Assembly: GCF_030028105.1 (NCBI RefSeq)
Contig: NC_092380.1
Span: 55,177,717-55,241,716, forward strand
Direction: 5' to 3'
Source of the DNA: Mobula birostris
Taxonomy: Eukaryota
DNA: 64,000 bases
In this document: in pieces, positions 2,762 to 59,746 of the stretch
Layout of the letters: each line of letters opens with the position of its first letter
How positions within the stretch are numbered: position 1 is the first letter of the stretch
Translations under genes and position numbers: made by a program
Notes under the pieces: model-generated
What the model saw: only the letters and a program-made list of their open reading frames with translations
Told to the model about the DNA's origin: nothing
The model's database searches: none

Positions 2762-2945
2762 TAAACAAGAGAAAATCTGCAGATGCTGGAAATCCAAATT
2801 GCACACACTAAATGCTGGAGGAACCCAGCAGACCAGGCAGCATCTATGGAAAAAAGTACAACTGGCGTTTCAGGCCGAGGCCCTTCAGCAGACTGGAGAA
2901 AAAAAAGGTATGGAGTAGATTTAAAAGGTGGGGGGAGGGGATGGA
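2762..2945 (-). mobile_element. Penelope-like pseudo-LTR with degenerate hammerhead ribozyme core
   Basis: Minus strand reads cagt-CTGCTGA-agggcctcggcct-GAAA-cgcc-agttg, then the gatgctgcc...cagcatt...ctgcag tail shared with four other copies. Confidence 0.72.
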
Positions 2946-4067
2946 GAAACACAGGATGGTCTATGGTAGGGATGCCTACCCTGAAGAAGTTTAAATCTTC
3001 CCTTCAATGAGAGTTCAGTGAAACTCTGTCTCAGCACTCCCCCTCTTGTGATCTCTGTGTCCCTCCAACTCTTCGGCCACGCGCATATCCAGACCCATTA
3101 TCACAGATCATACATTTATCATTGTTTTTTGCTAATCTCTTCCATTTAGAAATGAAACCCAAGCTTTTTAATCTGCATCACAGATTCCCAACCTTTTTTA
3201 TGCTGTGCACCAATACCATTAAGCAAGGAGTCCATAAACCCCAGGCTGGAAACTCCTGATCTACATTACGATTGATAGTTTATCTTCCATCCCAGCACTT
3301 CAATTCAACAAATTTTCTAGACAGCATGCCCCTTGCAAAATATACCACCTTACTGTCATCTTGTTGAAATTTAAAATGGGTTGTCTTGCCTCTGAATTTG
3401 TGATTGCATTTCTAGAATGTATCTTGTGGGTTGTACAGAAATGTAGTGTGTCCTTTTGTCATGAAAAGTACAACATAAATAGATGCCTTTCCTTTTTTTT
3501 AATCCTATTTCTCCTAACTCAATCCAATCTTGTAGCCTTTATCTAACTCTACTAAACCTAGCATTTTCTTTCTAATATCCAGTTCAAATCTGTGCACGTA
3601 TAACAGGAGAAATAACAGAAGGACAGGTTCCCGATGAAATCCCACTATAATTGGACTCTGCTGTGTGACTCTGTGCAGGGGTCCATGACATCATGGAGTA
3701 ATAGATGTGCCATCACCCACCATGCAACATGGCGCTGCACTGATGTTACTCTGAGCAGAGCCTGACACTTCCTGAACTAAAAATGGACGAATGCTGCTGG
3801 TTTCCTTTGGAATTTCACAGCTCAGTAAACTTTCAATTTCACTAAATCCTAGTGAATCTTACTTAACTCTGCATCCTCTTTCAACCAGCCTAAAGCCACT
3901 TTCAACTAAATTCCTCTGAAAGTTATTCTGTTGTCGACTGTTTCCTTGATCTGCGGTGCTCATCAACTCAGCAGGCTAGGTAATGATAGAAAAAGAAAGG
4001 GAAAAGCTGAGCCGAAATGATGGCAGACAAAAGTGGCCAGTTCTGAAAATTTTTTAGAAAGACCGAG

Positions 4068-4280
4068 TTATCTGAAGTTGGAGTAATGGATATTATGTTC
4101 ACAAGGCTGTAATAAGCTCAGTCTGAAAATGACGTGCTGTTCCTCAAACCTTAGGCCTCATTGTAACAGTGCAGAGGCCACAGGCGGAAAGGTCAGAGTG
4201 GGATCAGGATGGTGAATTAAAGTGGCCGGCAGCTGGAAGGGCAGTGTCACCCCTGTGGACTGAATGCGAATGCTCTTTTC
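4068..4280 (-). mobile_element. Penelope-like element, GIY-YIG endonuclease C-terminal remnant
   Basis: Minus-strand translation gives PAAGHFNSPS*SHSDLS and EEQHVIFRLSLLQPCEHNIHYSNFR*, matching the PLE pattern HFN...EExHLIFRLxxLQPxGxN. Confidence 0.75.
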
Positions 4281-16797: not shown

Positions 16798-16884
16798 TTT
16801 ATATGTTCTTATTGTAATGAATAGTTTTATTTATTATTATGCATTGCAATGTACCGCTGCTGCAAGACAACAAATTTCACGATA

Positions 16885-39630: not shown

Positions 39631-40799
39631 TTGCCAAGTGAGAGTTATCAGTATCCTTGAAAATTCCTAAGAAAAATTTCCACATTTGTTGCCAGTTTAG
39701 ACTTTCATCACACATGAAGCAGGACATATATACAAGTTAATTTGCAAAGTAGACTATCTAATATCTTTAATTTCTTGCCACAGACTTTCCGCAAGTACAA
39801 AGACAGTCGCGCCTGTTCAGGATTACTGTGTGAAGAGAAAACAGCATGTCCAGGCTGAAATTTGTAGTGCAGAAATCTACCGTTTGATTATTCAGATATG
39901 TTTGAGGGGAATTAATTGAATGAAAGAATCCCACAACGTGAATGAAGTCCAAACATAAGGAAACAAATATTACATAACTTGATCATATAACCTAATCCAT
40001 ACAATTTGAATATTGGTTGCACTATAATTTATATCGGTACAATGAGAATCATATTGTGCATATATTGCAACTCTTACAGTACATGTCCAGAGGATGTGAG
40101 AAACAAATAAAGTAGAACTAGATTCTGTATGTAGCATTTGTGTTCTTGAACCACTGTACAAGTATTCAAGCAATAGAATAAAGATTGGAATTTAAAAGCG
40201 AACTTCACCATTTTAGGTTTTTAATCTCCTGTCTCTGCAACATAAGACTTTATTTTTCCTTCCCCTTCTTGGGATTTTAGCAGGTGGTCTACTGTGATTT
40301 TAAGAACATCAGCAATCGCCAATAACAGTCCTTAGCAAAGTGAAAGAATGCAAGCAAAGTCACAGACAGGAACTTATAGGAAGTGATCAAACCCACAATT
40401 TTCACCATCACTTTTGGAAACCTTTGTCTAACCTAATGGAGAAACCCCTAAAATACCAGCAAAATTCGCAAAATTCTCTGCTGGGATATTAGAGTTTCTG
40501 AATTTCAGTCTAAATTTTAGCATGGTTCTGCTTTCACGGTTTGCCCACAATAACGCAGAGTTAAATGAAACCCACAGCACAGGAACAGGCTATTGAACCC
40601 AACATGTCTGTGATGGCATAAACACTCAATATACTATATGCCCCTTCTACAGCCTAGTGGAAGATAATCAGAAGGTCTTCCATAAGGAATTATTAGTTAG
40701 GCAAAGATAAAATAAACACAGTTCATAGGAGTAGAATGTGAAGAAGAAGTAAGGATCAGGACTAAACAAATCTTTGTGTTAGACTACGATTAAATTCTA

Positions 40800-41004
40800 A
40801 AAATGTGCTTCCTCTGCATGGTCCAGATTTCTCCACATCCCAATGATATGTGGATCTGTACGTTTGCCAGCCAGTGTGAATTGCCCCGGCTTCTCAGATA
40901 GAATCTGGGGAGAGTTGAAGAAAATAAGGGGAGAATAAAATGGGATTATTGTCAGATTGGTGTAAATGTGTGTTTCACATTTGGCATTGATTCTGTGAAC
41001 TGAA
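40800..41004 (+). mobile_element. HE1/V-type SINE, target of the Gypsy insertion
   Basis: tttctccacatcccaatga...tgtgaattgcccc; its tail resumes at 45822 (ctgaaggatatattttcatgct). Confidence 0.55.
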
Positions 41005-44000
41005 TATTGGCTATTTAAAATCTCAGTAATATTTGAGTAATAGTTTGATTAAGCATTCTTTGGTGTTTACATAATTAATTACAGGTTATATTTAAAAGTA
41101 CAAGAATGGCATACATCATCACACCACCATGTCAAGTGTGTGTGTTTCACTTTGAGTAAAAGCGAAACCAAGACACGCATCTCTCGGTATCCCTTGCTTT
41201 TCTTGCAATTAGTTTTACCTTTTGGAATAACAAAATATTATTGTGACAGCAGCGATGAGGAAGTTTTACACAAATCCAAGACACCCAACTGCCAACTGAA
41301 ATGCAATTAGACATTTGAGTTTTAAAAAAAAGTGCAGCACATGCTTCTTCAGCAGGGGACAGAAAAGAAGGAATTAAGAAAAGGGCAGAAAATGGACAAA
41401 ATTCACAGCTTCATGAACAGTGAAAATAGGTGATAAAATCATAAATAAAAAAATGTAAAAGTAGCTGGCTACATTGGAAAGATAGACAAGGTTGATTGAA
41501 CAAGAGATAACTGAATATTGTATACTGAGCAAATTGAGCAGAATTTTGAAGCAAATGAAATAGCCAATGAAAAACCGAGGGCCAATTTTGCTGAGTGCAT
41601 TGGATTTAGAGGCATACAGTTTGCTTAGGGCTTGACAGCTCCAAGCAAGTTAGATAAGATGAACTTTGCTGATATTGTGAAAGTAACGCTTGGACATTTA
41701 GAGCCAAAACCATTGTTGATTGCAGAAAGCATTAGGTTTCATAAGCAGAATCAAAAGGAAGGAGAGTATATTTCAACACAGGTGGCTGAACTGAACTTTC
41801 TTGAGCATTGTCAGTTCTGTCATGGGGTTAACGATGCACTGAGAGATCACTTAGTTTGTGGGATCTTATAAGAAAGCATTCAAAAATGGCTCCTAACTGA
41901 AGCACAATTCAGATTTAAAAGTGTAGTTGAAATAGCTGTTTCAGTGGAAACAACAGACAGAGATGCAATTGAGTTGCAGTCAGAACTGAAAGTGAGCATG
42001 AACAAAATTGCAACACTTAAATAGAAATTGGCCTGGCTAAACAAATTCTGTTATAGCTGTGGCAGGGGCTCAGACCAATTCAGGTTTAAAGGTGAAACTA
42101 GCAGAAAATGCAACAATGTGGAACACATATAAAGAACATGTCAGGCAGACAAAAATAAATGAACTACACAGTGAAAAGTAAAAGATACAATCAAGTTGCA
42201 GTTTTAAAAAGAGCATGCATCTCCATGCTGTTGATGAAAAATCTGATAATGATGAAAATGGCATAGCACTGATTAGCCTGGAGATTTACAATGTTAAGAC
42301 TAACAATAGACATGCAATATGGCTTTCACCAGAAGTGAAGAGCAAATTAATTAAAATGGAATTGGACACTAGCTCGGCTGTTTCAGTCATTCCACAAAAT
42401 GAGTTAAATGGCTTTTCAAAGATACTGAACTGAAAGCTGCAGATCTCCAGTGAAAAGACAGCTCCTGTCGGAATGACATTCGTAACAGTGAAATACAACA
42501 ACTAACCAGCCACATAGGGTTTGCATGTAGTAAAAACAGGAGGGCCAGTATTGTGGCATCGTGAGTGATTGAGATTAGCACATCTTGACTGGAGGTCCAT
42601 CCACCATTTGCATGCCACATCCGCTGTAAAAGAGTCAACTGAAAGCGAATTAAGAAACGTACTGGATGATGGCACGGGAAGGATGGCACTGGAAAACTCA
42701 ACCATATCAAGGATAAAATAATGTTAAGTGAAAATGCCACACCCAAGTTTTACTAAACCTTTCCGGTCCGTTATACCATCCATGACAAAGTATCCAATGC
42801 ACATGGAGACTGAAGGATTCCTTTTCAAGGTTGAATGGAGTCTGTGGGCAACACCAGTTGTCCCAGTAGCCAAGGAGAATAGATCTTTCAGTATCTGTGG
42901 TGATTTTAAGGTCACCATCAACCCAATACTAAAAGTAGATCAATACCCTCTGCCCAGGATAGAGGATATCTTTGCCTGCCTACAGATGGAGGTGGAAGCA
43001 GAATCCAAAGAGTTTCTCACTAGAAACACTCAAAGAGAATTTTATCACTATAATAAGCTTATTTTTGGAGTAGCATCTACACCTGCACTCTGGCAGAAAA
43101 CTATGGACAAGGTTCTGCAAGGCTACCCAGGCATGCAGTGTTATGTGGATGACTTCATTGTTACCGGTAAGGATAAAAAGGAATATCTCCAAAATCTCAA
43201 GACAGTATTAAAGAGATTAGAAGATTATGGGCTCAGAGCACGGTGCAATAAGTGTGAATTCTTTAAACCATACTGCGGGGTCACACCGTTGATGCACAAG
43301 GATTACACAAGTGTACTGAGAAAATGCAAGCAGTGGTGGATGCCCCGAGGCCAAAGGACGAGTCACAGTTGCAGTTCTTTTTAGGATTTGTTATTTGTCA
43401 ATTACTATAGCAGGTTCTTGTCAAACCTGGCTGCTGTGCTTCATCCCATGAACTCATTACTACAGAGCGTAAGAAATGACAATGGAGAAAGAAGTGTGAG
43501 GTGACTTTCAAAGTGGTAAAGGATATTGTGATGACAGACACTGTTCTCACATGTTATGATCCACATTGTCTAGTGAAACTTGTTCATGACACCTCAACTT
43601 ATTGTATAGATGCAGTCATGTCACATCTTATGAGTTATGGAAGTGAACACCCCATAGCTTTTACATCATGTTCCCTTATCACTGCAGAGAAAAATTATGC
43701 GCAGATGGACAGAGTCTGGGGTAAAACATTTCAACTCGTACCTGACTGGAAGGGGGTTTACCCTCATTACTGATTATCAACCACCAGTGTCCATTTTCAA
43801 TCCAGAGAAGCTGTTCCACTAACAGGAGCAGATCGAATGCAGAGATGGGCTGTTTCTTAGAGGACACAAGTACAAGATCAAATTCAAGAGAACAACTAAT
43901 CCATGCAGATGGATTGCCTGTTTACCATTGGAAAAGGAAATACTTGAAAAATTTACAAAGTAGGACACACCTCTTGTCATATTCTCTCTAATGCAAGTTG

Positions 44001-45821
44001 AACATCTCCCTATTATGGAAGGGATGATACAAAGGGAAACCAGAAAAGACCCACCCTCCACTGTCTCAGGTCCACATGGCAACCAAAAATAGCTGGAATG
44101 TGTATCGTTTTGCCATTTTTACCAGTGCCAGGTTGAACTTGTTTTGGATGGGGTTTGCATTATGTGGGGATTGAGAGCTGTTGTACCTTCCAACCTGAGG
44201 GATATTGTATTGAAGGAGCCACATATGGTCACCTAGGCATGGTCAAAATGAAAGCGTTGGCTCAAAGCTTTGCCTGGTGACTCGGGACAGATCAGCAGAT
44301 CGAGCAGCTTGTCATGCACTGTTTGGGATGCCAACACATCCAAATGAAAGTTGTCCTGAGCTGTCAGAGCTACTTCCTACTGTCCCATGGTCAACTGCTA
44401 CAACCACCATGGAATAGGCTCCAGAACCTGAGGTTATTTCACAGCCACAAGTCTCACCTGCTAAGCAGAGTGTCCACTCTCGTCAGGAAAGATGTTATGT
44501 CAGTTAGTTTTGAGAAGTAGAGAGGCTCCAGAAGGACATACAGATTAGGAGAATGGGCAAAGAAGTGGCAGGTGGAATACAGTGTCAGGAAGTATATGGC
44601 CATGAACTTTAGTAGAAGAAATAAAAGGGTAGACAATTTTCTAAATTGAGAGAAAATTTTAAAATCTCAGGTGCAAATGAACTTGGGAGTCCTTGTGCAG
44701 GATTCTCGAAACATTAATTTGCAATTTGAGTCTGTGGCGACGAAGGCAAATACTATGTTAGCATTCATTTCAAGAGGACTAGAATATCAAAGCAAGGATA
44801 TAATGCTGAGGTTTTATAAAGCACCAGTGAGGCGTAACTGGGAGTATTGTGAGCAGTTTTGGGCCCCTCACCTAAGAAAGGATTTGCTGACAGTGAAGAG
44901 CATTCAAAGCAGGTTCACAAAAATGATTCTGGGATTGAGAGATTTGGTGTCTCGGAGCATTTGATGGCTCTGGGCCTCTACTCACTGGAATTCAGAAGAA
45001 TAAGAGGAGACCTCATTGAAACCTGTTGAATGTTGAAAAACCTCGAGAGAGTGGATATGGAGAGGATGTTTCCTGTGGTGGAGGAATCTAAGACCAAAGA
45101 TCACCGCCTCAGGATCAAATGTGTCTTTTTATAACAGAGTTGAGGAGGAATTTCTTTAGCCAGAGTGCTGATTGTGTGGAATTTGTTGTCACAGGCGGCT
45201 GTGAGGAAGCCAAGCCATTTGATATTTTTAAGGCAGAGGTTAATAGATTCTTGATAAGTCAGAGGATGAAGGGATACAGGCAGGGAGAAGACAGAAATTT
45301 AGGGCTGAGAAGAAAAATTGATCAGCCATGATGAATTGGCAGAGCAGACTTGATGGGCCAAATGGCCAATTCTCTTCTTCTATCTTATGGTCTTGTCCCA
45401 CAGGAGTAAGAAATTGTCCACAGTGATTAAATCTTTATGCCTGAATAAGACAATTTAAAATTCACATATATGGTGGATGTCTATTTAGTGGATGTATTAT
45501 ATAGATATAAAAGTTGAGATGCATTCTATCATTCTATATTGAGTTAAACTTTTTAGCTACCCAGGAAGGAGTGTTGTGCATTTAATATTTCAGTAATATT
45601 TGCATAATTTGTAAAAATATTGTTTAATTAAGCATTTGTTGTTGTTTACACAATTCATAACGGGTTATATGTAAAATTACATGAATGGCATACATCATCA
45701 CTCCACTTTGTCATATGTGCACATCTCACTTAAAGCAGAAATTATACTAAGACACACATCTCTTGGGCTCTCTTGTTTTACTTGCAATTATTTTTCTGCT
45801 TTGGATTTACAAAATATAACA
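41005..45821 (+). mobile_element. Gypsy/Ty3 LTR retrotransposon, both LTRs present, decayed gag-pol
   Basis: LTRs ~41005-41245 and 45572-45821; TSD CTGAA; purine tract before 3' LTR; gag EPKPLLIAESIRF, protease MELDTSSAVS, RT WATPVVPV/ICGDFKVTIN/YVDD, RNase H HPIAF...AEKNYAQ, integrase zinc finger CLGCQ. Confidence 0.92.
44499..45396 (+). mobile_element. CR1 3' fragment nested in Gypsy
   Basis: KANTMLAFISRGLEY and WEYCEQFWAPHL; removing it rejoins Gypsy ERCY|PTGVRN. Confidence 0.9.
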
Positions 45822-46961
45822 CTGAAGGATATATTTTCATGCTATGAATGAACAACCTCCCAAAATCCAACCTAAATATTATTTAAATACTAGCTAACTA
45901 AGAGCATTTTACCAATTTTTGTTCTTTTTTAACTGAGCATCTTTTTATTCTGTGCTACGACACTAACAGCAGGTAACTACTCTATTCTAATGAAATCACT
46001 GATAACCCTTAACCTATGAAAGCACTAGCACTGCCACCATCTCACTTCTATTCGTCATCACACAGTTAAATCCCAGCCAAGAGATTCCATAGCCAGTCTT
46101 GGATGAAATTAAGTGATTCCTTTGGGGAATGGCTTCACTGACCAGATGTCTCTAGCCAGGTCTGGGGAGAGACGTTGGGCCAAGCAGAGGAGGGGAGTGG
46201 TGGGAGTTGGGGGGGGGGGGTTTGCGGGGGAAGCAGCTGCAATGCCTTCCTGGTTGTCGTGGACACCAGCTTTCCCATCCATCCTGCAGCAGTGAAGAGG
46301 GGAGTAGCTGCCAGCTGTTGTCACTGTGCCACCGGGATAATAAACAAGTGGGAGGCTTGTGCTTGGCCAGCTCACAGGCCTCCAAACAAAAAGGCAAAAG
46401 AGAAATCTCCTGTGCCACAAAGCCGCCTGTGTGGCTGCTTGCTTCTGTCCAATTCCTGAAAGCGAGTATTCCTTCCTTCATTCCCGAAACTTCAGATGCC
46501 ATCTGCAGCAGCAGGGGATGCGGTGATGAATCTGTTTGACGATCTGATGATGCAGGTTCATTTAATTGGAAATGCTTCCCCGCCCCCCACCAGCCTTACT
46601 TATTGAGAAGTTAAATGGTTTTACGAGCTTAATCCTTGACTTTCAGAGCTTGTTTTCTTGGACTGGTTTGCCAGTTTCAGTCTCATTCCATCATTTCAAC
46701 AAAGCTTAATTAAACTCCCCTGCAAAGATAAACTAATAGGACACGGTTTAACCCTTGCAGTAAAGTTCATCTCCTTCCCCACCCCCCTACCATGCCCCAC
46801 CATCCCTTCACTATTAATAAGAGTTGATCTAGATAGCTATCTCCCCAGTACCCCCACCCATCTCTTTGCTCAAAGTTTTAAATGTCTAATTATAGCTTTG
46901 CTGAGCTAATGATCAATACATCAGAGACCTCAGGATAACTTTGAAGTCAGAATACACTAGG

Positions 46962-46965
<4 letters not shown>

Positions 46966-47039
<74 letters not shown>
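46966..47039. repeat. Perfect (GA)n microsatellite, ~37 units
   Basis: Direct reading. Confidence 0.98.
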
Positions 47040-47042
<3 letters not shown>

Positions 47043-47829
47043 AGTTTTCAGAGGTTGGGGGCTTAGGGGTGAAGATGGGGCTGGAGGAAGTGAGAGATGG
47101 AAAGGAAGGAGATAATAAATAATGTTCTTCCCCCACCCCCACTCTCCCACCCCACCTGCAGACTTCACCAACTCAACATACATAGAGTGGTGACTCTTAT
47201 GGTAAAACTATATAAATAGGCTCCATGCAGACAGTTGGGGCTTTCGTTCAGAGCCGCATCTCTACCTCAGGCTAACAAATGGCAGCACACTCGTTCAGCC
47301 CTTTATCATTAAAAAAGTTTCAAACTTCGTGTTCCATTGTGCGTCTCCTTCATCCAGCCCTTTTCACTTTCTAAGCTGGCTAATTACTACCATATATAGC
47401 CTGTCACTCTGCTGAGAATATAAATATGATTAGCTCCCCCTCCAACCGCCGCCTTTGTCTCCTTCCTCTGTTCCAGCTACCTTACACTTTCCACGTGACA
47501 GGAAATGTTATAACACTTCAAACGTTATTTTTACTTCTCTTACTCCCACCCTCACCTTCCCAAACAACTATCCCATCCCCACCAATAAACCCCAGACTGT
47601 CCCTCCTCCTCTCTTCGTTTTTTCATTAAAAGCACATACACTCAGCCTTCTGAACTCCCCCAACTTGTCGCCATGGGATGGCCTGGCCAGGATGTTCAAA
47701 TGAAACAATCAGTGTCTTTCCTGCCCCAGGCTAGTCCGGGGCTGTTAATGAAAGACTGTAATGAAAGTCCCCCACTGAGAGAAGAAGCACAGAGAGAGAG
47801 GAAGAGAAACTCAAAAGAAGCTCAACTCC

Positions 47830-47972
47830 CACAAAATACTGGAGAAACTCAGCAGGCCAGGCAGCATCTATGGAAAAATGTACAGTCCATAGATACTCCC
47901 TGGACTGCTGAGTTTTCCAGCATTTTTTGTGCGTTGCTTGGATTTCCAGCATCTGCAGATTTTCTCTTGTTT
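47830..47972. mobile_element. Fold-back Penelope pseudo-LTR insertion
   Basis: Inverted arms around a short spacer; TSD GAAGCTCAACTCC (47817-47829) and GAAGTTCAACTCC (47973-47985). Confidence 0.8.
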
Positions 47973-48151
47973 GAAGTTCAACTCCAAACAAGTAGGTGGG
48001 GCATTTATGGAAACTACCGGAAAATGATAACCATACTGCAGAAACATTACGCGCAAGGTTAATCTGCGTTCCTGATAAGACTATATGGAACGAATTTTAG
48101 CTGATCTCAAACACCTGGGACCAAAGGGACCAAATACCACGATACAGTGAA

Positions 48152-48415
48152 GAGCAACACACATAAAATGCCGGTGGAACGCAGCAGGCCAGGCAGCATC
48201 AATAGGAAGAAGTACGGTCAATGTTTCCGGTCAAGACCATTCGTCAGGACTAACGGAAAAAAGAGATAGTAAGAGATTTGAAAGTGGGAGGGGGAGGGGG
48301 AGGAACCCGAAGCATCAACTGTACTTCTTCCTATAGATGCTTGGCCTGCTGCGTTCCACCAGCATTTTGTGTGTGTTGCTTGAATTTCCAGTATCTGCAG
48401 ATTTTCTCATGTTTA
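48152..48415. mobile_element. Fold-back Penelope pseudo-LTR insertion with hammerhead core
   Basis: Inverted arms gcaacacacataaaatgc and gcattttgtgtgtgttgc; minus-strand CTGACGA...GAAA at 48215-48252. Confidence 0.8.
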
Positions 48416-48419
48416 CATT

Positions 48420-49228
48420 TTTAACTACAGTGAATCGGCTGTCTTGCACACTGTTCATACAGATCAGATCACTACACGGTGCATTGAGGTAGAACAAGGT
48501 AAAGTAATAGCAGAAAGCAGAATAAAGTGTAACAGCTACAAAGTAAGTGCAGGTTAGGCAAAAATAAGGTACAAGATCATAGACTGTGAAGTTAAGAATT
48601 CAACTTATACTAAGGAGCCTTTTAATAGTCTTATAATAATGGGGTTTTAGCTGTCCTTAAATCTGCTGGTACAGGTTTTCAAGCTTTTGTATCTGTCTGA
48701 TGGGAGAGGTCTGGGGTGGATGGGATCTTTGATTATGTTGCTACTTTACTGAGGCTGTGATAAGTATTGAGAGTCCATGGAGGGGAGGCTGGCTTCTGTG
48801 ATATACTGAGCTGTGTCAATAACTCTCTGCAAACCCATGTCATACCAAGCTGTTATGCATTCAGATAGAATAGTTTCTATGACAGATTAATAAAAATTGG
48901 TAAGGGTTGATGGGAACATATCAAATTTCTTTAGCCTCCTGAAGAGGTGGGGCATTGACTGGTGAGCCTTCTTGGCAATGATGTCTACGTGGTTGGACCA
49001 GGACAAGCTATCTGTGATGTTCACTCCTAGGAACATAAAGCTTCCAACCCTCTCAATCTCTACAGCATTGATGTAGACAGGAGCTTGAGCACTGCCCCCC
49101 CCTTCCTAAAGTCAATGACCAGCCAACATTGAGGGAAAGTTATTGTCATTTCACCATGTTACTAAGCTCTCCGGCTCATAGTTATTTGAGATATGGCCCA
49201 CTATGGTAGTACCGTCTACAAGTTTGCA
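48420..49228 (-). mobile_element. Rex1/Babar-like LINE 3' fragment
   Basis: KLVDGTTIVGHISN (decayed FADD region); homology to 10900-11220. Confidence 0.68.
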
Positions 49229-49234
49229 TATTAA

Positions 49235-50570
49235 TTCATTCAATTACTGTGTACATACATCTATTGATGCCTCTGGACACATCTTCAGTGATGTTCCTGG
49301 AATCATCGGGTGTTTTGGGTCTTTCAATATCATACAACCTCCTCCAGGTGACCCAGCCGGGGTTGATCAGACCGCAGCTTGTGTCCAGATGGCTAGCTAC
49401 TTATCACTCCATGGCTCCCCTCTTTTGAGCCACAGCCATCTTGAGGCCCTCTCTGCTGCATCGGTGGTACTGTGGATGGCTCTCCTCTTCCTCTCTCCCT
49501 CGATGCCCAAAATGCTGAAGGCTCTAACTAAAGAATGGGCTACGAATCCCCTACAACCAACCTCCACTAGAAGACACCTCGCTCTCCATCCAGCCTGCTG
49601 ACAGTTGCTGACCAGTCCTGCGTACTTGAAGAGCTTCCTTTCAAAGGCCTCCTCCAAGCTATCTTCTCATGGGACTGTCAGCTCCAGCAGCACCACTTGC
49701 TTAGTCGACTCAGACACTAGGACAATGTCTGGTCGCAGGGTGGTGGCTGCAATATGGTTGGGAAACTTCAGCTGCCCTTCGAGGTCCACCAACAGCTGCC
49801 AGTCCCTTGCAGAGGTCAGAATGCCTGCAGATGTTCTTTTGGCAGGTACTGGCTGCTCCCCAGCTCTGACAAAGGCAATGGTCTGCTTGGAGGGTCGGGA
49901 CCGCTTTGCCCACTCAACTCCTGCGCTGACGGCTTCAGCGGTGGTCTTCAGGACCTGATCATGCTTCCACCTGTACCGTCCCTCACCAAGTGCCCTTGCA
50001 CAGCCGCTGAGGATGTGCTCCAGGGTTCCTCGCTTGGAGCACAGTGGGCACGCAGATGACTCTGCCTTGCCCCATGTGTGCAGGTTTGATGGGCTTGGAA
50101 GCACATCGTACACTGCCTGGATGAGAAATTGGATGTGGTGTGGTTCGGCTTTCCAAAGTTCAGGCCAGGTCACTTTCCTCTCAACCGCATTCTCCCATCT
50201 TGACCAAGCTCCCTGTTGCTTCATTCCCACCAACTTGCAGACTCTCATCTCCTCCACTACTGCTCTCACCTCCTCCCGAACTAGATGACGCCTTTCCTTC
50301 CCTCTGGTGTCCATTTGGGGAGTTGGAAAGGATCCTAGCCCAGCTCGGCCTCGTGTGACCACTCCCACCAGCCTCCTGTGACGCAGCCTCACCTCTGCCT
50401 CCTGAACAGCTTCCTCTGCCCTCCACTTTCTGCCAGTACTTACTTGGATCCCTGCTCTAGCCACCTTTGGGTCACTTGAGTCCCTATATTGTAGCTCTTC
50501 TCTGGCCCTTGTTACCTTGAATTCTTCCTCCAAGGATTTGAAGGGCAGTTGCAGTTTGTTGTGGTGTCAT
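49235..50570 (-). mobile_element. HERO-type (R2 group) non-LTR retrotransposon 3' part with restriction-like endonuclease
   Basis: CPLC-x7-H-x4-C knuckle, KHDQVL, LRPDIVL, LLELTVP*E, ERKLFKY; ORFs 49667-50533 and 49397-49657 share one frame separated by one TGA. Confidence 0.87.
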
Positions 50571-51329
50571 TAATTAAGCGTGGACTATCAGTAAGGTTGA
50601 TATTCATGATCTATCCCCGGCTGCCGCTGAGAAATTGCTCCATGAACATCAGGAGTTTGTGTAGAGAAAGTGATTAACCAGCCAATTCAGGGCTGGGACC
50701 CGACAGTGATGTTGCAATTAGCATTATGTTCCTGAGTTCAGATGTTACATGGCTGCCTCACTATCCAGAACGCCCAGACCTACTTGCCTTGTACTGTTTT
50801 GGGTTACGCACTGCTTTCATTTCATTGGCTTGCTATCTGCACCAATTATATGAAGCTTACAGATTGCTGATGTTATCTTCAGATGCTTAACAACCTCACT
50901 TTGCCTGGTTTCCTGGTGCTTGGAGTTGACTAAGGCTAACTATATCCTGTCATTACAGTAACTGGTTTTAACCCTTAACCTGACTGTAGCCTAGGATTTG
51001 GCACTAACGTAGCTGAGAGGGTCTGTGTGATGTATGCTCCTTAAATACAAGAGTATCAAAGGTGTTACTGATTTAAACCAAACACTAAAAGAGGGTCCAG
51101 TAAAAGCATTTGAAATTCAATTGCCATAGGTAACATTACATTTACCTGTTACACTCTTCATCAATCTTCAATAAGTCTCTCATCTACCTGTACTTGATCC
51201 CCATATTTCCCTATGGCACAGGAAGGCTTTTGGCCTCTAGTCTATGCCACCTCACAGAATAATTCCATCTCCCAATAATTTAACGGGTAGCCTATTCTCC
51301 TTACATTCCCATCAACATGCTTCACTATT

Positions 51330-51845
51330 GAAACATCCTTTGTGGAAAGTATGCTGCCATATTCCTTTCACCCCATCCATCCATAATCCTCTTTAACTTT
51401 CTACCATCAGGCAAGAGACTCCAATGCACAAAGACGAGAACGATCAGGATGGGAAACACCTTCTTCCCCCAGGCTGTTAGGCTTCCGAACTCCCTGCCAC
51501 ATTGCAAATCACTGGGTAATTGTCTATACCCTACAATATTTAATTTCTGCACTTTGCTTTGTTTATTTATGGATAATTAATTTATAAATTTTATTCTTAT
51601 TTTCCTAAGTTATTTTGTGTTATATTTGTGTTATGTGTACTACTGTGCTTTACACCCTGGTCCGGAGAAACAATGTCTCATCTGATGGTATACAATTATA
51701 TAGTTAAATGACAATTAACTTGACTTGACTTAGTGCACTGTTTTTCTTTGTAATTTATAGATTTTTATATATTTGTACTGTACTGCTGCCATAGAACAAC
51801 AAATTTCACACCATACGTCACTGATGATAAATCTGATTCCGAGAA
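51330..51845 (+). mobile_element. Rex1/Babar 3' fragments (two tails)
   Basis: FLPSGKRL...FFPQAVRL; tails ttgacttgactt and ataaatctgattc. Confidence 0.7.
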
Positions 51846-52289
51846 CTCTTACACACTGAGCTTCAGTTATAGCAGCAAATTTTAAATTAACTCCTATGTT
51901 CTTTGCAATGGAGTTCTAGTTATCCTTATTACAGGGTCAAAGATCAAAATTGCAATTGAACGATGGTGGAATAATATATCCACTGCCCTCACAGTGTGTA
52001 TATACAAAGTTGTGCAGCCAGTTAAACACTTTCTCAAGAATTACCCGAGACGGAAGCTTCCTTCAGGGTTCTTAATGAGAATGCTTACTTGGGAAACTGC
52101 AGAAAGTTAAGTAAAATAAGTATTAAATTCAATACAGAATCATTGCATGCCAGTTATTCTAACAACCAGGGGTAACCAAAGTAACACAACACACATATGC
52201 AATTTCTTAACTACGTCGTGTAAACAAGTGTAAACTTGTGGTACAATGACAAACTTAAACCTAATCCTTCCTTCAAAAGTTACCTACTA

Positions 52290-53912
52290 CAGGAGTCCCC
52301 CGCTTTTCGAACATTCGCTTTACGAAACCTCACTGTTACAAAAGACCTACATTAGTTACCCGTTTTCGCTAACAGAAGGTGTTTTCACTGTTATGAAAAA
52401 AGAGAACGTGCGAAAAAAAATCAGCGCGCGAGAAAAAAGCAGCCGCCGCGCGCCCCGAACAGCCGCTCTCCCCTGGATTCGGAATGGCATTCTCGCCGGC
52501 ATTGCTTAAACATGTGCCTGTGAGCAGCCGTTAGCAAGGTGAGTTCTAAGGTATCAGAAAAGCCTAAAAGAGCTAGTAAGGGTGTTACACTTAGCGTAAA
52601 ACTAGACATAATTAAGCCTTTCGATCGTGGTGAACAAGTAAGGATAAAGTGAGTTTGGCTTGTGGAAGTTGACGAAGATGATGTTGAAGAGGTTTTGGCA
52701 TCCCATGACCAAGAACTGATAGATGAAGAGCTGATGCAATTGGAAGAGGAAAGGATAACAATTGAAACCGAATGCAGTAGCGAAAGTGAAGTCGTCCAGG
52801 AACTGAACATGAAGCAACTGCGTGAGGTTTTCGCTGCAATGACAAAGTACAACTTCAATTTTGAAAGGGTACGTCGGTTTAGGGCATATTTGCAGGATGG
52901 TTTGAGTCCTTACAAAGAACTGTATGATAGAAAAATGCGCGAGGCTAAGCAGTCAAGCAAGCCTTCCACATCAGCCACAGAAGACAACGAACCTCGACCT
53001 ACGCCATCGAGGCAGGCAGACATAGAAGAAGATGACCTGCCTGCCCTGATCGACGATGAGGTGAAACCCCAGTGTCTCACCACCCCAACCCCTGAGCCTC
53101 GGACAGATACCGATTCGCGGAGAATGCAGCGTAGCTGGAATGCACTCAGCACATCTTTAAGAAAAAAAGCCGAAATAAACATGCAAATTAGTTAGGTGCC
53201 GCCCGGCATGTAAATGTCAACCCAGATCAGAGGCGATTGCAGATTGCGTCGCCTCTGATCTGGGCCAACACGTACGTGCCGGGCGGCACCTAATTAATTA
53301 GCTTGTTTATTTCGGATTTTCTTAAAGATGTGCTGGGTGTGTCCCGGCTACCGCTGTACCCTGCATGCTTCGTGGATCGGTATCAGTCGGTGGCCTGGAG
53401 GGTGGGGGCCACTGCACCACCCCAGACTCCGACCACTCAGCCTAACACACCATCATCAGTGTGCTCGATGTCTTCACGATTCCCGTAAATGATACTACAC
53501 TGTACATACATTATTTCTGCTTTATATAGGCTGTGTATTTTTACGTGTTATTTGGTGTGATTTCGCAGCTTCATAGCTTAAAGGTTACTGTAGAGCGCTT
53601 GCGCCGTGTTTCTGCCGAGAGCGCCTGCGTGAGATTTTCGCTACGGAGAACAGTGCGCAATGATTGTGGAAAAGTATTTCTACTTTATATAGGCTGTGTA
53701 TTCATCATATCATTCCTGCTTTTACTATATGTTACTGTTATTTTAGGCTTTATGTGTTATTTGGCATGATTTGGTAGGTTATCTTTGGGTCTGCCAACGC
53801 TCACAAATTTTTCCCATATAAATTAATGGTAATTGCTTCTTCGCTTTACGACATTCCAACTTACGAACCATTTCATAGGAACGCCCTACCTTCGGATGGC
53901 GGGGGAAACCTG
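52290..53912 (+). mobile_element. Internally deleted Tigger element with internal palindrome
   Basis: TA-caggagtcccccgc...gcgggggaaacctg-TA; N-terminal KGVTLSVKLDIIKPFDRGE and C-terminal EVDEDDVEEVLASHDQEL...PYKELY; no DDD domain. Confidence 0.88.
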
Positions 53913-54249
53913 TATATGTTTACTAATATTGGCAATAACTTAAAACTCAGAGATATTGCTGTTTCAAGGGCAAACAAAGAGTGAATGGAGATGGAGGTCT
54001 TTCTACTGTGTGTTTCAAATTGAATTAAGCTAACCTGCGCAGGAAATGGTATATAAAATGACTTCATATAGGAAATGATATTTGTACAAAATGAACTGTG
54101 CCTTTAGAGCAAGAACTTTTCCCGTCTAACATGCACAGTTTGTTAAACTGAACTACTGAAACTAAAAGTCAAGTGATCACTTCACTAGGCCTTTAGCGAA
54201 AGAAGGACAGTCTCAAAGACTGGTCTTGAAAACAGTCTTAGAACTCAGT

Positions 54250-55835
54250 CTTCAACCGTTCTCTCTTTGAAAATACCGGCTTTGATGACGTACTTGCTCA
54301 TGGTAATGTCTAATGAGCAGAGAGTTGATAAGATACTCACCCTGAATGATGATTGGGTGGAGGTACCTTTGAAGTGAGCAGTGCCTTCTTTGCCCATCCT
54401 CCAACTCACAGTAGCCCCTCAGAGTCAAGAAAGGGACAGAGTTTACTAAGGGTCTTTGTTTAGGGAGAGGTTCCTGCTTTGAGATGCACTGCACTTCCTC
54501 TGCATAAACCTGGCTTTGATCAAAGATTCTAACCTTTGCCCGATTCAGACGCTCTGTGTTGCGAGGTTGCTTACAAACGTGCCAACCATTGCAAAGGCTG
54601 TCATTGGTTACTCCTGTAAAGGAATGAGCAATATCCGAGAATTGGGCAATTGCTCTGGGAAGCTCAGAGTGCGCACTGCCAAGTTGGAGCAGTGTCGGTC
54701 GACGCTCGCGGACCTCGTGGTCCGCTAAGTTGAAAGTTCCCTACTGACTATGTTCCTATTGCAGGTCAGCAAGAAATTCTGGGCCAGTTATCCATGAGGA
54801 GATGGTGTGCTGATTCTCTTGCAGCCCTCTTGTGGAAAGATCAGATGGGTTGAGATCGGTATTTATTTATTTAACGATATATCATGGAGTAAGCCCTTCA
54901 TATTGCAACCCCTTGAGCTCCATTAACCCTAACCTAATCACAGGTCAATTTACAATGAGCAATTAACCTACCTAGTACGTCTTTGGATTGTGGGTTCTAG
55001 ACCCTTCAAGAGCACGTTGTTCAGTGATGTGCATTTGAACTGTGCACTTGAATCAAAGACAATTCGTATTTGTGTTTGTTTCTTGGGGTGGTAAACACCC
55101 CAAAGTGGGCGAATGCCAGTTTTTCTGTTTGGATCTGGTGAGGGAACTAGCTGAGCCTGATTGTCCCTGAAGTGTCTGTCGACGAACTCCATCATTTCTG
55201 GTTTCCTTCTCAATGGGCGACTGAGCCACATGATTAACTAAAGGCTTGTTCTTTTTATTGGAGTCGTCATGGAAAGCAGAAAGGAAGGGGAGCTACCCAA
55301 CTGTTCAACTCATCTTTACTAAGCCCCTTGTTTATGATTCGAAGGAAGACTTCATCTTCGATGGAAGATGCTAGCTTATAGTTATCTTCTGAGTAAGAGA
55401 AGACCAGCTTGCATAAAGCAAAAGTTGAGTTAAGTATGTCAGAGTGCGTGGTTTGCTTACCTACAATCTTCCTTTCATGGCAGATTCTACCCTGAACTGA
55501 CTTGGGCGCCCATTCTCCAGGAAATTAGTCTTAAATGTGCTGATGGTCCTTTCAGGTAGATGTTGACTAGACATATTTTCAAGCAGGATTTGCCTTCAAT
55601 GCCTTTTCAGCATATGTCTGTACATTAGGAAGTAGCTGCAGCTGATGGATGCTCAGCTGGCTTCCTGCTGTGCTCTGATACAGGTGTGCTGGAACTAGTC
55701 CCAGTCCAAGGTGCTAGCCCTGAATGAAGTGCTGATATGTACTCTTCACTGTTGCACTCAGTGCAGTGTATAATAGCTTAACAGTTTTTTGTTTGGTGTA
55801 CTGTTGAAGCACAACATTTGAAGCATATTGAGTGC
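54250..55835 (-). mobile_element. BEL/Pao LTR retrotransposon internal remnant, heavily deleted
   Basis: gag CFKCC knuckle (~55825); RT GVYHPKK...IRIVFDSSA...SLNNVLLKG; NPSDLSTRG, WITGPEFL; integrase HPIII...LLIRHYHEQVRHQ. Confidence 0.8.
54862..55000 (-). mobile_element. HE1/V-type SINE 3' fragment nested in BEL
   Basis: (TTTA)n reversed tail, then caatttacaatgagcaattaacctacctagtacgtctttgga. Confidence 0.65.
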
Positions 55836-56489
55836 TACTTTGGAAAGTGTCACCAGTCTACAGTGTGTTAGAGCATATTCTGGAGTTATGGTATACAACA
55901 ATTAGTAATTTCAACAGCAACCAGTCTTCAGACTTGAACATGGATTGTAGATTGAGTTTAAAATGCAGCTCAGAACAATGGTGTTCCTGGAGCTGCAGCT
56001 TGGGATCGATTGCAAATCAAGAAATACCCCATTGACCTGAGATGTCTGCTTATGCATGAATGCAGCCCAGAGAGAATGGTGATTGACATGCTGGGTGTCT
56101 GGAGTGTTGATGTGAAGATCTAGGTGTTTGAAAATTATGTGTAATTCAAAGGAAGCATTGTGGATACATTGCAGCTATAGAATTATCCTGATGTTACCTT
56201 TGATCTTAAGTACATAAAGATGTCATGTAATATTGGGTCAGGAATCCTCTACCGGGAGTGTCTCCATTGGCGCCTGCCTGTTTTGCTGAATAAAGACTGC
56301 TACAGCTTCAGTGTCTTTCCAGCGACTTTGTTCACGGTCACAATAGCAAATTTTCTTATGGACAGGGTACTGTCTATTGAAGTTCATGATAGATATTTCT
56401 ACTTCAGTTGTAATTAGACAGATTAGACAGGAGAAAGGCTTGACTGGTTTAAGCTGACAGGAAGGTAACAGCAACTCTAATAATCACAG

Positions 56490-56640
56490 GTTACAACAGC
56501 GGTGTGCAGACGAGCATCTCTGACTGGACATCATGTCGAACCTTGAAGTACATGGGTTACAGCAGCAGAACACCACAAGCCTACACTCAGTGGCCACTCT
56601 TTATTTACAGGACATACCTAAGAAAATGGTCATTGAGTGA
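56490..56640 (+). mobile_element. Tc1-like fragment
   Basis: YNSGVQTSISDWTSCRTLKYMGYSSR (Tc1 second HTH); TIR-like tacactcagtggccac and gtcattgagtg. Confidence 0.6.
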
Positions 56641-56814
56641 ATTTCCATAATATTACTAGATCCATGCCTTTGTAGTGCGAGCACGTTCTGTATACCAAGC
56701 ACCCAATGCCATTCCTTTTGACTCCTACGATAATACAAACTTTGTGTGTTTCAGAGGCTTCAACAAAAGGCTTAGCCCCTTGATGTCTAGTAGTATAAAG
56801 ACTCTAAACAGCAG

Positions 56815-57335
56815 TCCTTTCTGGTCGCCTCACTACAGGAAGGATGTGGAAGCCATAGAAAGGGTGCAGAGGAAATTTACAAGAATGTTTCCTGGATTGG
56901 GGAGCATGTCTTATGAAAACAGGTTGAGTGAACTCAGCCTTTTCTCCTTGGAGTGACGGAGGATGAGAGGTGACCTGATAGGTGTGTATAAGAGGATGAG
57001 AGGCATTGATTGTGTGGATAGTCAGAGGCTTTTTCCCAGAGCTGAAGTGGTTGCCACAGGAGGATGCAGGTTTAAAGTGCTGGGGAGTAGGTACAGAGGA
57101 GATGCCAGGGGTAAGTTTTTCACTCAGAATGGTGAGTGTATGGAATGGCTGCCGGCAATAGTGGTGGAGGTGGATATGATAGGGTCTTTTAAGAGACTTT
57201 TGGATAGGTACATGGAGCTTAGAAAAATAGAGGGCTATAGGGAAGCCTAGTAATTTCTAAGATAGGGACATGTTTGGCACAACTTTGCGGGCTGAAGGGC
57301 CTGTATTGTGCTTAGGTTTTCTATGTTTCTATGTT
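56815..57335 (+). mobile_element. CR1 LINE 3' fragment
   Basis: FWSPHYRKDVEAIERVQR and RGDLIGVYK; tail tttctatgtttctatg. Confidence 0.9.
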
Positions 57336-57339
57336 TCCC

Positions 57340-57740
57340 CACAAGGCCTTTATGTTGCCTTCACCAAGCTTCAGTGCATCACTCAGCATGTACTCCTGCA
57401 GCCTGCACTGTGCAAGTGAGCAGAATTCCCTTATGGGTATCACAACAAGTTTAGGACAGACCAAAGTGCCTCTTTCACTGAGCAGATGATTTTCAAACAG
57501 CATTTGATACTTGTCACATGCGTGAGCCTGGGAGCAACCTGCAGATCAGAAAGTCCTCTATTACACAGCAGCTCACGACGAACAGCGACAAGATCTCTTG
57601 CATCCTTTCCCAGAACTTTGCACATCCAACACTTGGCCAATTGGCTCATCCCCAAGGCAGCCGTCCCAAAGTCAGCCTGCATTGCGGATGAGATACCAAT
57701 TGTGTAGGGAGGATCGTGTGCGGAGGGCACCTCTCACTAG
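57340..57740 (-). mobile_element. Tx1/L1-clade ORF2 C-terminal remnant
   Basis: IICSVKEALWSVLNLL and LQEYMLSDALKLG...KALWG resemble the Tx1-type C-terminus. Confidence 0.62.
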
Positions 57741-58584
57741 CAGCCACGCATATTGTCACAATTCAACAGCTGCTTTTAAGAAGCCTAAGAATTTAAATAC
57801 AAGACTACACAGAGAATCAGCTGTGTTCCTGTAACACCAATCATATCACATACATTGTGCAATTTAAATTGGGCCTCGAGGGCAATCTGATCTCCTTCCG
57901 CCCTCCACTTTCCAAAAGATAAGAGTAATTGAGGAGGAAACAGACGGGCAGTGACTACCTTGAGATTAGGCTGATCAAACTGAATGCCCAGAATACAATG
58001 TGTTCTGGGAAGAGCAGTAGGGTGTGCACTAGGTTGCTCTGTTTGGCAGTGATTCAGCCATTGACAGATAAAATTCATCAGTGTATCTTTAACACAGAAC
58101 CTCATCACACAGAGGAGCCCACGTTGTCCAGTGCACTTGTGACAGTTTCTAGACGATTGATTTGCGTTTATGTAGGATGCATATTTAGGATTTCTTACAT
58201 CCCTTTCTCAATATTTCAAGAGACTTTCTGTAATTTGCCAAAATCCTGTAAATGATTTTTTTCTGAAGGTTTATTCACTTCTGAATTATTGAATCTCTTT
58301 TCAGTGATTCTGCTTGTCTATAATCATAAAAAGGTGCAAAAAGAAAAGATTATTCTTGTCTTATTCAGTTATTTTAAATTCCTGTCCTTTTGTTCAAAGT
58401 TCAAAGTCCAAAGTAAAATTTATTATCAGAGTACATGTCACCACATACAACCCTGAGATTATTTTTCTGCAGGCATACTTAGAATTCGGTTATTAATTCT
58501 CTTGCCAGTGGAATAGTTCCTTCTGAGAAGCCGTATCAGCTTGCAACAATGGTTCCACATTAGCATGGCCACTTCACCGAAGCC

Positions 58585-58765
58585 AAAAGTGAATTGCTGG
58601 AGGAGTTCAGCAGGTCGAGCAGCATCCTTGGGGGTCGGGGTTGGGGCTGGAAGAAGTGCCAGCATTTCTCAACCCTTTCCCTTCACAAATACTGACAGAC
58701 CCACTGAGTTCATCCAGTAGTTTGTTTTGTTTTGCTCCAGATTCCAGAATCTGCAGTCTTTTCTG
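58585..58765. mobile_element. Fold-back Penelope pseudo-LTR, diverged
   Basis: tgctggaggagttcagcaggtc is inverted against gacccactgagttcatccagta; same tail ccagattccagaatctgcagtc. Confidence 0.65.
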
Positions 58766-59562
58766 CCACAACTTATATATGGTTTTCCTTCATGCTGGTG
58801 GCTATAAAAGGAATGGATTTCCTCATTAGCAGGAAAAGCTTTTACTCACAATTCCTCCATCACACATTGCAAACAGTAGCAGCTAATTGCACACTTGACC
58901 TGTCTTTGAATTCCAACATGGTGATATGAAAAGAAGGCAAAAGCAATGGTTGTTCTTATTTTCAAGTTATAACTCAAACATTCAATGTACAATAATGAAT
59001 CAGGGTTAAAATTCCATGTGTGTGACTGTGAAACTAGGGTAGAGAGAGAGTGAGAGGCTTGAGAGAGTGGGTCTGAAAGAGTATGAGAAAAGAAAGAGAA
59101 CATGTGTGAGCACATGAACTTATTTTTGGAGAATATTCAAGAAGCTAATCAGTGACATTCTTTTTTTTGTCAGAGCGGTAACAAGAGCAAGTGGCTTTAA
59201 TATTGTGCAAGATGGATTGCTCATTTGTACAACAATCAGCTGTTTCTTTCCATGGCACCTTTGAAGAAAGTTTAATTCCTTCCTGTGGAGGTGCTAGAGA
59301 TCAGAGGCACTTCCATATCTCCCTCCTCACAAGTCTCACAGAGAACAGGGCAGGATGACCTCACAGAAACAGGCCCTGCCCTCACCATAGTTCACAAAGA
59401 AACAAAGGCCTACTGCACAGGCGGCCATCATTCAATCTCTCACATCCACATTAGCTGAAATAAATAGCTATCAGGATTAATTTCCAGGTCCATAACATTG
59501 TTAATTCCCCTATAACAAGTGCAAATTCAGATATTTTTGAAATGAACTGAGGGCTTCCACAA

Positions 59563-59746
59563 GATGCTGGAAATGAGGGAGTGGGGCTCAATGGTTCGGG
59601 CAGCACCTTGTGGTGGGAAATGGCCAGTTGACGTTTCAGGGAAGTTGACCCAAAACCCTTCACAGATGCTGTCTAACCTGCTGAGTACCTCCAACATCAT
59701 TTGTTTTGCTCCAGATTCCAATATCTGTAGTCTCTTGTATCTCCAA
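59563..59746. mobile_element. Fold-back Penelope pseudo-LTR insertion
   Basis: Perfect 14 bp TSD GAGGGCTTCCACAA (59549-59562 and 59747-59760); minus-strand GAAACGTC. Confidence 0.78.

What the first reader, a model, noticed from the sequence alone, without database searches (positions are those of the whole stretch)
48215..48252. Minimal hammerhead ribozyme core in a Penelope-like pseudo-LTR
Seen: the minus strand reads agtc-CTGACGA-a-tggtcttgaccg-GAAA-catt-gacc, i.e. CUGANGA, stem II, GAAA and a short stem I (gtc/gac). The copy at 2855-2897 has CTGCTGA...GAAAcgcc and the copy at ~59630 keeps GAAACGTC. Together they imply a family consensus near cagtc-CTGANGA-stem II-GAAACGTC-gactg, with a palindromic ACGU stem III. 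Established: Penelope-like elements carry minimal hammerheads thought to cleave as dimers. Inference: these copies are inactivated, partly by CpG decay (CGTC to CATT), but the parent family self-cleaves.
Basis: partly seen in the sequence, partly recalled or inferred. Interest (0 to 1): 0.7.

Follow-up and report, generated by a model that had tools for sequence, protein, structure and literature searches.

The report
Decayed hammerhead in Neptune-type retrotransposon stub
This is a broken copy of a known miniature self-cutting RNA motif carried by a very abundant jumping gene; across the genome many copies begin at the motif's first bases rather than at its predicted cut, and rare doubled copies are often joined at the predicted cut, which likely means the element's RNA starts with the motif, is mostly copied uncut and may sometimes be cut in cells.

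Summary
The motif is real: a decayed minimal type I hammerhead at 48215-48251 (-), in a 274-bp inverted-arm stub with a 9-bp target duplication. The parent is a Penelope-like element with RT, CX4CxxC linker and GIY-YIG endonuclease (Neptune-type by motif). An intact 34-nt core occurs 6,497 times in the genome, a young tail motif 55,330 times. This copy has six changes in the ribozyme (G10.1-C11.1 to U-G, ACGU to ACAU) and is likely dead. Hammerheads in PLE pseudo-LTRs are published (PMC4209133). Beyond that: 26 of 174 sampled copies begin 30-33 nt before the predicted cut, at helix I's first bases (1.0 expected), only 2 at the cut; likely the RNA start. Of 93 head-to-tail doubled hammerheads, 18 join exactly at the cut, the commonest single position and a possible trace of cleavage in cells, but +2 and +5/+6 are also favoured. 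A cap-G signature failed its controls. No cleavage was tested. The scan reported this family, the start pile-up and cut-site joints before on other DNA of this genome.

The parts
48215..48251 (-). Decayed minimal type I hammerhead: helix I 5' strand 48251-48248, CUGACGA 48247-48241, extra A 48240, helix II 48239-48228, GAAA 48227-48224, decayed helix III/C17 48223-48220, predicted cut between 48220 and 48219, helix I 3' strand 48219-48216
48153..48302 (-). Forward arm of the PLE stub, element positions -83 to +67 relative to the predicted cut (end of 3' UTR, hammerhead, short tail end)
   Evidence: 84% to the young element
48306..48425 (+). Inverted arm, from position -11 (inside helix II) through the long tail end
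48143..48151 (.). Target-site duplication, one copy (9 bp)
48426..48434 (.). Target-site duplication, other copy (9 bp, identical); overlaps a stretch that also aligns weakly to the element
47823..47984 (.). Separate older palindromic stub of a related family without the hammerhead core; its forward arm (47887-47823, minus) begins at the predicted cut, sharing 2 nt with the inverted arm
2763..2947 (-). Older related pLTR copy with a broken core (CTGCTGA; hammerhead about 2859-2894)
2971..3115 (+). 5' start of a PLE ORF, beside the inverted pLTR at 2763-2947
   Evidence: 72% to the young element's ORF start
4068..4239 (-). Fragment from the 3' (endonuclease) end of a PLE ORF
58592..58756 (.). 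Old palindromic tail remnant of a related family
59560..59730 (.). Old palindromic remnant with GAAACGTC on the minus strand near 59630; no CUGANGA core

Best explanation
The stretch is a decayed, likely inactive copy of the minimal hammerhead in the pseudo-LTR of a very abundant Penelope-like retrotransposon (Neptune-type by motif), whose RNA likely starts at the ribozyme's first base and was likely copied into DNA mostly uncut. Shown: the element's anatomy, the intact family motif, the six changes in this copy, the two preferred 3' ends about 65-70 and 100-107 nt past the predicted cut, and the pile-up of 5' ends at -30 to -33. Inferred: a promoter in the upstream pLTR starts the RNA at about the A at -32; the RT-endonuclease protein starts cDNA internally at the two tail sites on one or both nicked target strands and runs off the RNA's 5' end, leaving 100-135-bp stubs and head-to-head palindromes; longer copies such as this one (-83) come from the downstream pLTR of read-through RNA. 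The parent hammerhead would cleave only weakly, as a dimer through ACGU/ACGU or with help from the protein.
For: Parent ORF: RVT_1 E 7e-7, GIY-YIG E 0.0075, YIDD, CX4CxxC linker, two Cys between GIY and YIG. Direct pLTR-ORF tandems in about 13 of 30 loci holding the ORF start, ATG 138 nt past the cut. 6,497 intact cores; 33 of 70 young and 6 of 49 older copies that span the motif keep all its features. Three families keep -32..+4 and differ outside it (F20 against F16: 32 of 37 inside, 11 of 20 upstream, 4 of 11 downstream). 5' ends: 26 of 174 at -33..-30 against 1.0 expected, 2 at -1..+1 against 1.0; 9 against 1.0 in copies without an inverted arm, several with the target duplication abutting. 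Double-hammerhead energy -16.1 and -10.9 kcal/mol for intact copies, -0.2 for this copy. The anole Poseidon element starts cDNA internally and uses unprocessed RNA (PMC11167929).
Against: No raw RNA reads were available, so the RNA start is inferred from DNA copy ends only. The extra-G (cap) signature did not pass controls: G 707 against A 441 at -33, but G 23: A 18 among 100 listed rows at -34 (not different, p 0.52), no excess at -37 (G 25: A 27 of 100 rows), and in at least 8 of 30 inspected G copies the G comes from the inverted arm. The same boundary looks like a 3' splice acceptor in all three families. In the 172-nt leader helices I and II have pairing probability of at most 0.01. The youngest subfamily has U at 11.1 (44 of 57) instead of the conserved C. 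No tree was built for the clade call.
Confidence: 0.7

Rival explanations
1. Addition to the best reading: the parent hammerhead did cut in cells. RT that reached the RNA's 5' end sometimes jumped onto the 3' end of a released 32- or 36-nt 5' cleavage fragment, leaving head-to-tail doubled hammerheads joined at the cut.
For: Of 93 genome-wide doubled-hammerhead joints (tallied by hand), 18 end unambiguously at C17 (-1), 10 of them joined bluntly to the A at -32 with no shared bases; 11 end at -2, 6 are ambiguous at -1..+1, none end at +3 or +4. 18 of 93 against a uniform 1 in 17 gives p 7e-6. In the joint loci printed, almost all continue into a single tail and then flank, so they are 5' additions and not insertions into older copies; where the added piece ends at -1 it was not seen to extend upstream of about -36.
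Against: Other positions are favoured too (+2: 11 of 93; +5/+6: 23 of 93), so a uniform null is too generous and internal re-priming at structure-defined sites explains all peaks without cleavage. Rows are not all independent (several arrays). The joints are rare (93 against tens of thousands of copies). Copies that begin at the cut are scarce: of 30 inspected from 707 with a purine at -1, 18 were read-through point mutants and most of the other 12 share bases with the inverted arm or target.
Confidence: 0.4
2. The -30..-33 boundary is a spliceosomal 3' splice site (pyrimidine tract, AG at -32/-31), as in Drosophila virilis Penelope where the intron ends at helix I, and the pile-up reflects a splicing-linked RNA end or RT stop, not a transcription start.
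For: All three families have a pyrimidine tract and AG at this place; the young family has a branch-point-like heptamer about 15 nt upstream (consensus recalled). PMC4209133 reports the intron end at the 5' end of helix I in D. virilis; donor-like GT sites lie at -633 to -728.
Against: None of the sampled copies starting at -26..-40 carries upstream element exon sequence in the sense direction other than a doubled hammerhead; several have the target duplication directly abutting. No GT..AG joint to this site among the joints shown for four contig sets (160 further joints were not shown).
Confidence: 0.2
3. The pile-up is a joining effect: the self-complementary hammerhead DNA offers microhomology between the two cDNAs of inverted insertions, with no special RNA end.
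For: Inverted joints crowd into the motif (19 at -33..-29 and 16 at -28..-18 of 55) and one recurrent microhomology joint made 8 of 30 inspected G copies.
Against: Copies without an inverted arm show the -33..-29 peak as well (9 against 1.0, p 1e-6) but hardly the -28..-18 plateau (6 against 2.6).
Confidence: 0.12
4. The motif no longer works as a ribozyme in the young family and is kept as a protein-binding or promoter element.
For: G-U at 10.1-11.1 in the youngest subfamily; hammerhead fold not favoured in the leader; ribozyme mutants of the anole element still insert in vitro (PMC11167929); 8 of 9 Xenopus retrozyme dimers did not cleave (10.64898/2026.07.22.740005).
Against: All catalytic-core bases, the ACGU palindrome and the GUC triplet are kept across three families whose flanks have diverged.
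Confidence: 0.2

Closest known systems
Minimal hammerheads (min-HHR) in pLTRs of metazoan PLEs, incl. Xena, Poseidon and Neptune of fishes (Cervera and De la Pena 2014, PMC4209133; read: abstract, results, discussion, part of methods)
   Same: Type I core, extra base between A9 and 10.1, G10.1-C11.1 in the older subfamilies, palindromic 15.2-16.2, short helix I, most copies dispersed as single truncated motifs, some as opposed pairs.
   Different: Helix II is 4 bp with a tetraloop (their Schistosoma examples have 7-8 bp); exact intact cores alone number 6,497, comparable to the 4,000-9,000 total motifs they counted in coelacanth and Xenopus; youngest subfamily has U11.1. The parts read do not map copy ends against the ribozyme.
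Poseidon of Anolis carolinensis, PAc (Frangieh et al. 2024, PMC11167929; read: abstract, main text, part of methods)
   Same: Two preferred 3' ends about 35 nt apart (the tail) some 65-105 nt past the cut; both strands extended; unprocessed RNA is the main template.
   Different: PAc is Penelope/Poseidon clade and its ORF starts inside helix II; here the ATG is 138 nt past the cut and a CX4CxxC linker is present. They found no RNA reads ending at the cut; here doubled genomic copies join at it more often than at any other single base.
Neptune clade of EN+ PLEs (Craig et al. 2021, PMC8557442; read: passages)
   Same: C-terminal GIY-YIG with CCHH-type residues, CX2-5CxxC linker, partial tandems, inverted 5' copies, 30-40-bp tail, hammerhead in the pLTR.
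   Different: No microsatellite targeting noticed in the flanks printed (not tested formally); clade not confirmed by a tree.
Animal non-LTR retrozymes (bioRxiv 10.64898/2026.07.22.740005; read: passages and one part with results end and discussion)
   Same: Hammerhead-bearing derivatives of PLE pLTRs; one chondrichthyan genome had them.
   Different: Here the copies are dispersed stubs with target duplications; tandem hammerhead units are rare (93 joints), 28-40 nt long and at most about six units, not satellite arrays of 50-970-bp monomers.

Membership tests
Type I hammerhead ribozyme (family majority sequence) | CUGANGA and GAAA core | tested here: met
Type I hammerhead ribozyme (family majority sequence) | Helices I and II can form | tested here: met
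   Both in the minimum-energy fold of the 37-nt motif; not in the 172-nt leader. Subfamily variants keep pairing (U-A/U-G, G-C/G-U), one-sided changes only.
Type I hammerhead ribozyme (family majority sequence) | A15.1-U16.1 pair and NUH triplet | tested here: met
   ACGU then C17, GUC triplet; NUH rule recalled
Type I hammerhead ribozyme (family majority sequence) | Self-cleavage after C17 | not testable with these tools
   Indirect only: 18 of 93 doubled joints at -1
Type I hammerhead ribozyme (Rfam models) | Match to an Rfam hammerhead model | tested here: not met
   No match up to E 5 in the window or E 10 on intact copy L032; a motif without loop III need not fit those models
Metazoan PLE min-HHR | Extra nucleotide between 9 and 10.1; palindromic 15.2-16.2; location in a pLTR | tested here: met
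Metazoan PLE min-HHR | G10.1-C11.1 pair | tested here: inconclusive
   Met in older subfamilies (30 of 40 C); youngest has U11.1 (44 of 57); this copy has U10.1-G11.1
Active hammerhead (this copy, 48215-48251) | Palindromic helix III and intact closing pairs | tested here: not met
   ACAU, U10.1-G11.1, A-C at the end of helix I; double-hammerhead energy -0.2 kcal/mol
EN+ Penelope-like element | RT followed by C-terminal GIY-YIG endonuclease | tested here: met
   (both Pfam hits at or below the curated cut-offs: 29.5 of 29.6 and 17 of 22.6 bits)
EN+ Penelope-like element | Direct or inverted pLTRs, 5' truncation, 30-40-bp optional tail | tested here: met
Neptune clade | CX2-5CxxC linker and CCHH residues | tested here: met
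   Read from P0001 against the definitions in PMC8557442
Neptune clade | Placement in an RT phylogeny | not tested
   No reference sequences were held

The most novel reading that the evidence does not exclude
The genome holds a fossil record of this ribozyme's life cycle: the element's RNA begins with the hammerhead's helix I, the ribozyme cuts 32 nt from the start in cells, and the RT template-jumps onto the released fragment, writing 32-nt hammerhead tandems into DNA. That would be in vivo evidence for cleavage by a metazoan PLE minimal hammerhead, with a role in removing the RNA's capped end rather than in cutting monomers out of multimers.
Probability: 0.3. Interest if true: 0.7.

Novelty: new member of a known kind. 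Interest (0 to 1): 0.4.

Why it matters
The copy itself is an ordinary relic. The family matters because the role of PLE hammerheads is stated to be unclear (PMC8557442) and the one biochemical study found no RNA ends at the cut (PMC11167929). Tens of thousands of young copies give a base-resolution record of RNA ends: they argue against routine copying of cleaved or circular monomers as the only route, point to an RNA start at helix I, and give precise predictions (starts at -32/-36, cyclic-phosphate ends at -1) that one CAGE and one cyclic-phosphate sequencing run can test.

Tried and rejected
Pile-up of 5' ends at the cut (my first idea, from the 47823-47887 copy): rejected, 2 of 174 at -1..+1; the genome-wide purine test was dominated by point mutants and microhomology and had no neighbouring-position control. 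Cap-derived G at -33: 8 of 9 in the sample but inconclusive after controls; C and T at -33 were not counted genome-wide. Nested DNA insertion as the source of doubled hammerheads: not seen apart from a few older complex loci. Spliced copies: none found. Rfam: nothing. RNA: no run on record as RNA holds the stretch; the contig sets laid cannot show starts, ends or strand, and showed no host exon in 40000-59000, which is no evidence either way. In one search the printed identity rows for the young family used a one-member group by mistake; only the F20/F16 row is used. One search opened an unrelated paper from a wrong id. Searches gave no data on G-U at 10.1-11.1, so its effect is left open. Literature searches for copy ends mapped on PLE hammerheads listed nothing that reports this by title or abstract; subscription papers (e.g. 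the Penelope promoter and Terminon papers cited in PMC8557442) were not seen, and no supplements were read, which may hold shark or ray examples.

Full report
Numbering. Position 0 is the G after the predicted cut (GUC|GAC); -32 is the A that opens helix I. The window lies in a 4.0-Gb genome; that it is a ray or other cartilaginous fish is my recollection of similar repeats and the guess of earlier notes, not tested.

Observation. A bare core descriptor is not rare (6 hits in the window) and Rfam gives no hammerhead here or on an intact copy, so the case rests on the family. A DNA search found 3,896 candidates, 40 scored; the 30 loci fetched align to AGTC CTGACGA A GGGT CTCG ACCC GAAAC(G)TC GACTG. 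An intact 34-nt core has 6,497 exact matches and its reversed control none. Tail motifs have 55,330 matches for the young subfamily and 2,631 for the older one that includes this copy. These are exact-match lower bounds.

The parent element. L061 is a near full-length copy with a 0.74-kb inverted pLTR. [quoted passage not shown] By the definitions in PMC8557442 (passages) that is Neptune-type; no tree was built. Of 30 loci holding the ORF start at 97-100% identity, about 13 have a direct pLTR in front, whose tail runs on into the ORF; the ATG lies 138 nt past the cut. The hammerhead therefore sits at the pLTR's end, in front of the ORF in tandem copies.

This copy. It is a 274-bp insertion (48152-48425) between two identical 9-bp flanks: a forward arm from -83 to +67 and an inverted arm from -11 to beyond +100. 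Against its subfamily it has six changes in the ribozyme: G10.1 to U, C11.1 to G, a loop C to U, G16.2 to A, C17 to U and the last helix I base. G16.2 is the parental state: 7 of 10 tail-sampled copies of the same subfamily have it; its excess of A among the hits reflects selection by similarity to the query. The double-hammerhead fold scores -0.2 kcal/mol here against -16.1 and -10.9 for two intact copies. Inactivity is inferred.

Conservation. Three families with different tails keep -32..+4 and diverge on both sides (F20, 14 copies, against F16, 9 copies: 32 of 37 inside, 11 of 20 upstream, 4 of 11 downstream). Contigs of related organisms show loose ends near the same two boundaries. Variants keep pairing by one-sided changes only, so there is no true covariation. 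Against activity: the youngest subfamily has U at 11.1 (44 of 57, far above the 5-14% decay at its other CpG bases), and in the 172-nt leader both helices have probability at most 0.01. Of copies spanning the motif, 33 of 70 young and 6 of 49 older ones keep every feature.

Where copies end. I took the first 100 of 55,330 young and the first 74 of 2,631 older tail matches, all on contig C1, anchored 19 nt past the cut, and extended them against one young copy (2 edge duplicates dropped). 3' ends are bimodal, about +64..+72 and +100..+107, like the tail explained by two internal RT starts in PMC11167929 (main text read). 5' ends: 26 of 174 at -33..-30 (1.0 expected from the -41..-200 rate), 24 at -29..-18 (3.6), 2 at -1..+1 (1.0); 74 run past -200. 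Split by context, the -33..-29 peak holds in copies without an inverted arm (9 of 45; 1.0 expected) and in inverted ones (19 of 55), while the -28..-18 plateau is mainly inverted. End calls are blurred by 1-3 nt through chance matches. The sequence around -32 fits the initiator consensus YYANWYY (recalled), but equally a 3' splice acceptor, which is where the D. virilis intron ends (PMC4209133). No exon-joined copy was found, which favours a real RNA end. The cap test failed to decide: G 707 against A 441 at -33, yet G 23: A 18 at -34 and G 25: A 27 at -37 among 100 listed rows each (counted by hand), and inverted-arm microhomology supplies the G in at least 8 of 30 loci.

Doubled hammerheads. 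A pattern that fixes helix II upstream and the core downstream with 0-18 free bases found 93 joints. By hand: upstream copy ends at -1 in 18, ambiguous -1..+1 in 6, -2 in 11 (6 of these followed by G), shared GTC in 3, +2 in 11, +5/+6 in 23, -3..-10 in 14, other 7; none at +3 or +4. -1 is the commonest single position (p 7e-6 against uniform) and 10 joints are blunt -1 to -32 with no shared base. The loci printed show one tail and then flank in almost all cases, so these are additions at the 5' side. A jump from the RNA's 5' end to the 3' end of a cleaved fragment fits; so does re-priming at preferred internal sites, since +2 and +5/+6 are unexplained. I give cleavage in cells 0.4. The complementary product, copies starting at 0, is at most a small class.

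Mechanism, committed. RNA starts at about -32 (inferred); the protein starts cDNA at the tail sites on one or both nicked strands (inferred from PAc and from the bimodal ends); most cDNAs pass the cut site, so the template was uncut or rejoined (shown for the copies, inferred for the RNA); run-off gives stubs, paired run-offs give palindromes; cleavage is weak and occasional (untested).

Novelty. Hammerheads in fish PLE pLTRs, Neptune included, are in print (PMC4209133). My searches (listings only, except the papers named) showed no paper mapping copy ends onto the ribozyme, but subscription papers and supplements were not seen. The scan had already noted this family, the start pile-up and joints near the cut on other DNA of this genome; I had reached both readings before that look-up (note), and those notes are unchecked, so they are not counted as support. 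Verdict: new member of a known kind, interest 0.4.

Noticed in passing
G000:C4:178772326-178772531 (L306-L308): About six tandem 40-nt hammerhead units (-32..+6 plus one base) inside one insertion; a miniature retrozyme-like array. Similar 32- and 36-nt triplets in L282/L283, L286/L287 and L273/L274.
   Followed up: partly
Young subfamily, position -9 (e.g. L073): The most abundant young subfamily has G-U instead of the conserved G10.1-C11.1 pair, and most joints at the cut belong to it.
   Followed up: partly
L075, L076, L082, L085, L086, L091, L100: 7 of 30 loci with the ORF start carry a second copy of about 208 bp of the 5' ORF region (reference 503-710), i.e. two length variants of the N-terminal part.
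   Followed up: no
L220 and L185: Two of 174 copies begin at -46, one base 3' of the branch-point-like A; noticed after the fact and not significant alone.
   Followed up: no
window 2763-4239: Inverted pLTR, ORF start on the plus strand and an endonuclease fragment on the minus strand may be remains of one rearranged older PLE.
   Followed up: partly
window 53162-53323 and 24706-24858: Other short inverted repeats (75-nt arms, 12 nt apart; 44-nt arms, 65 nt apart) not of this family.
   Followed up: no
window 7325-9334, 16884-17339, 29726-30579, 56818-57312, 60273-61146: Several truncated copies of another repeat family, probably LINE 3' ends (class recalled, not tested).
   Followed up: no
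window about 46967-47040: (AG)n microsatellite.
   Followed up: no
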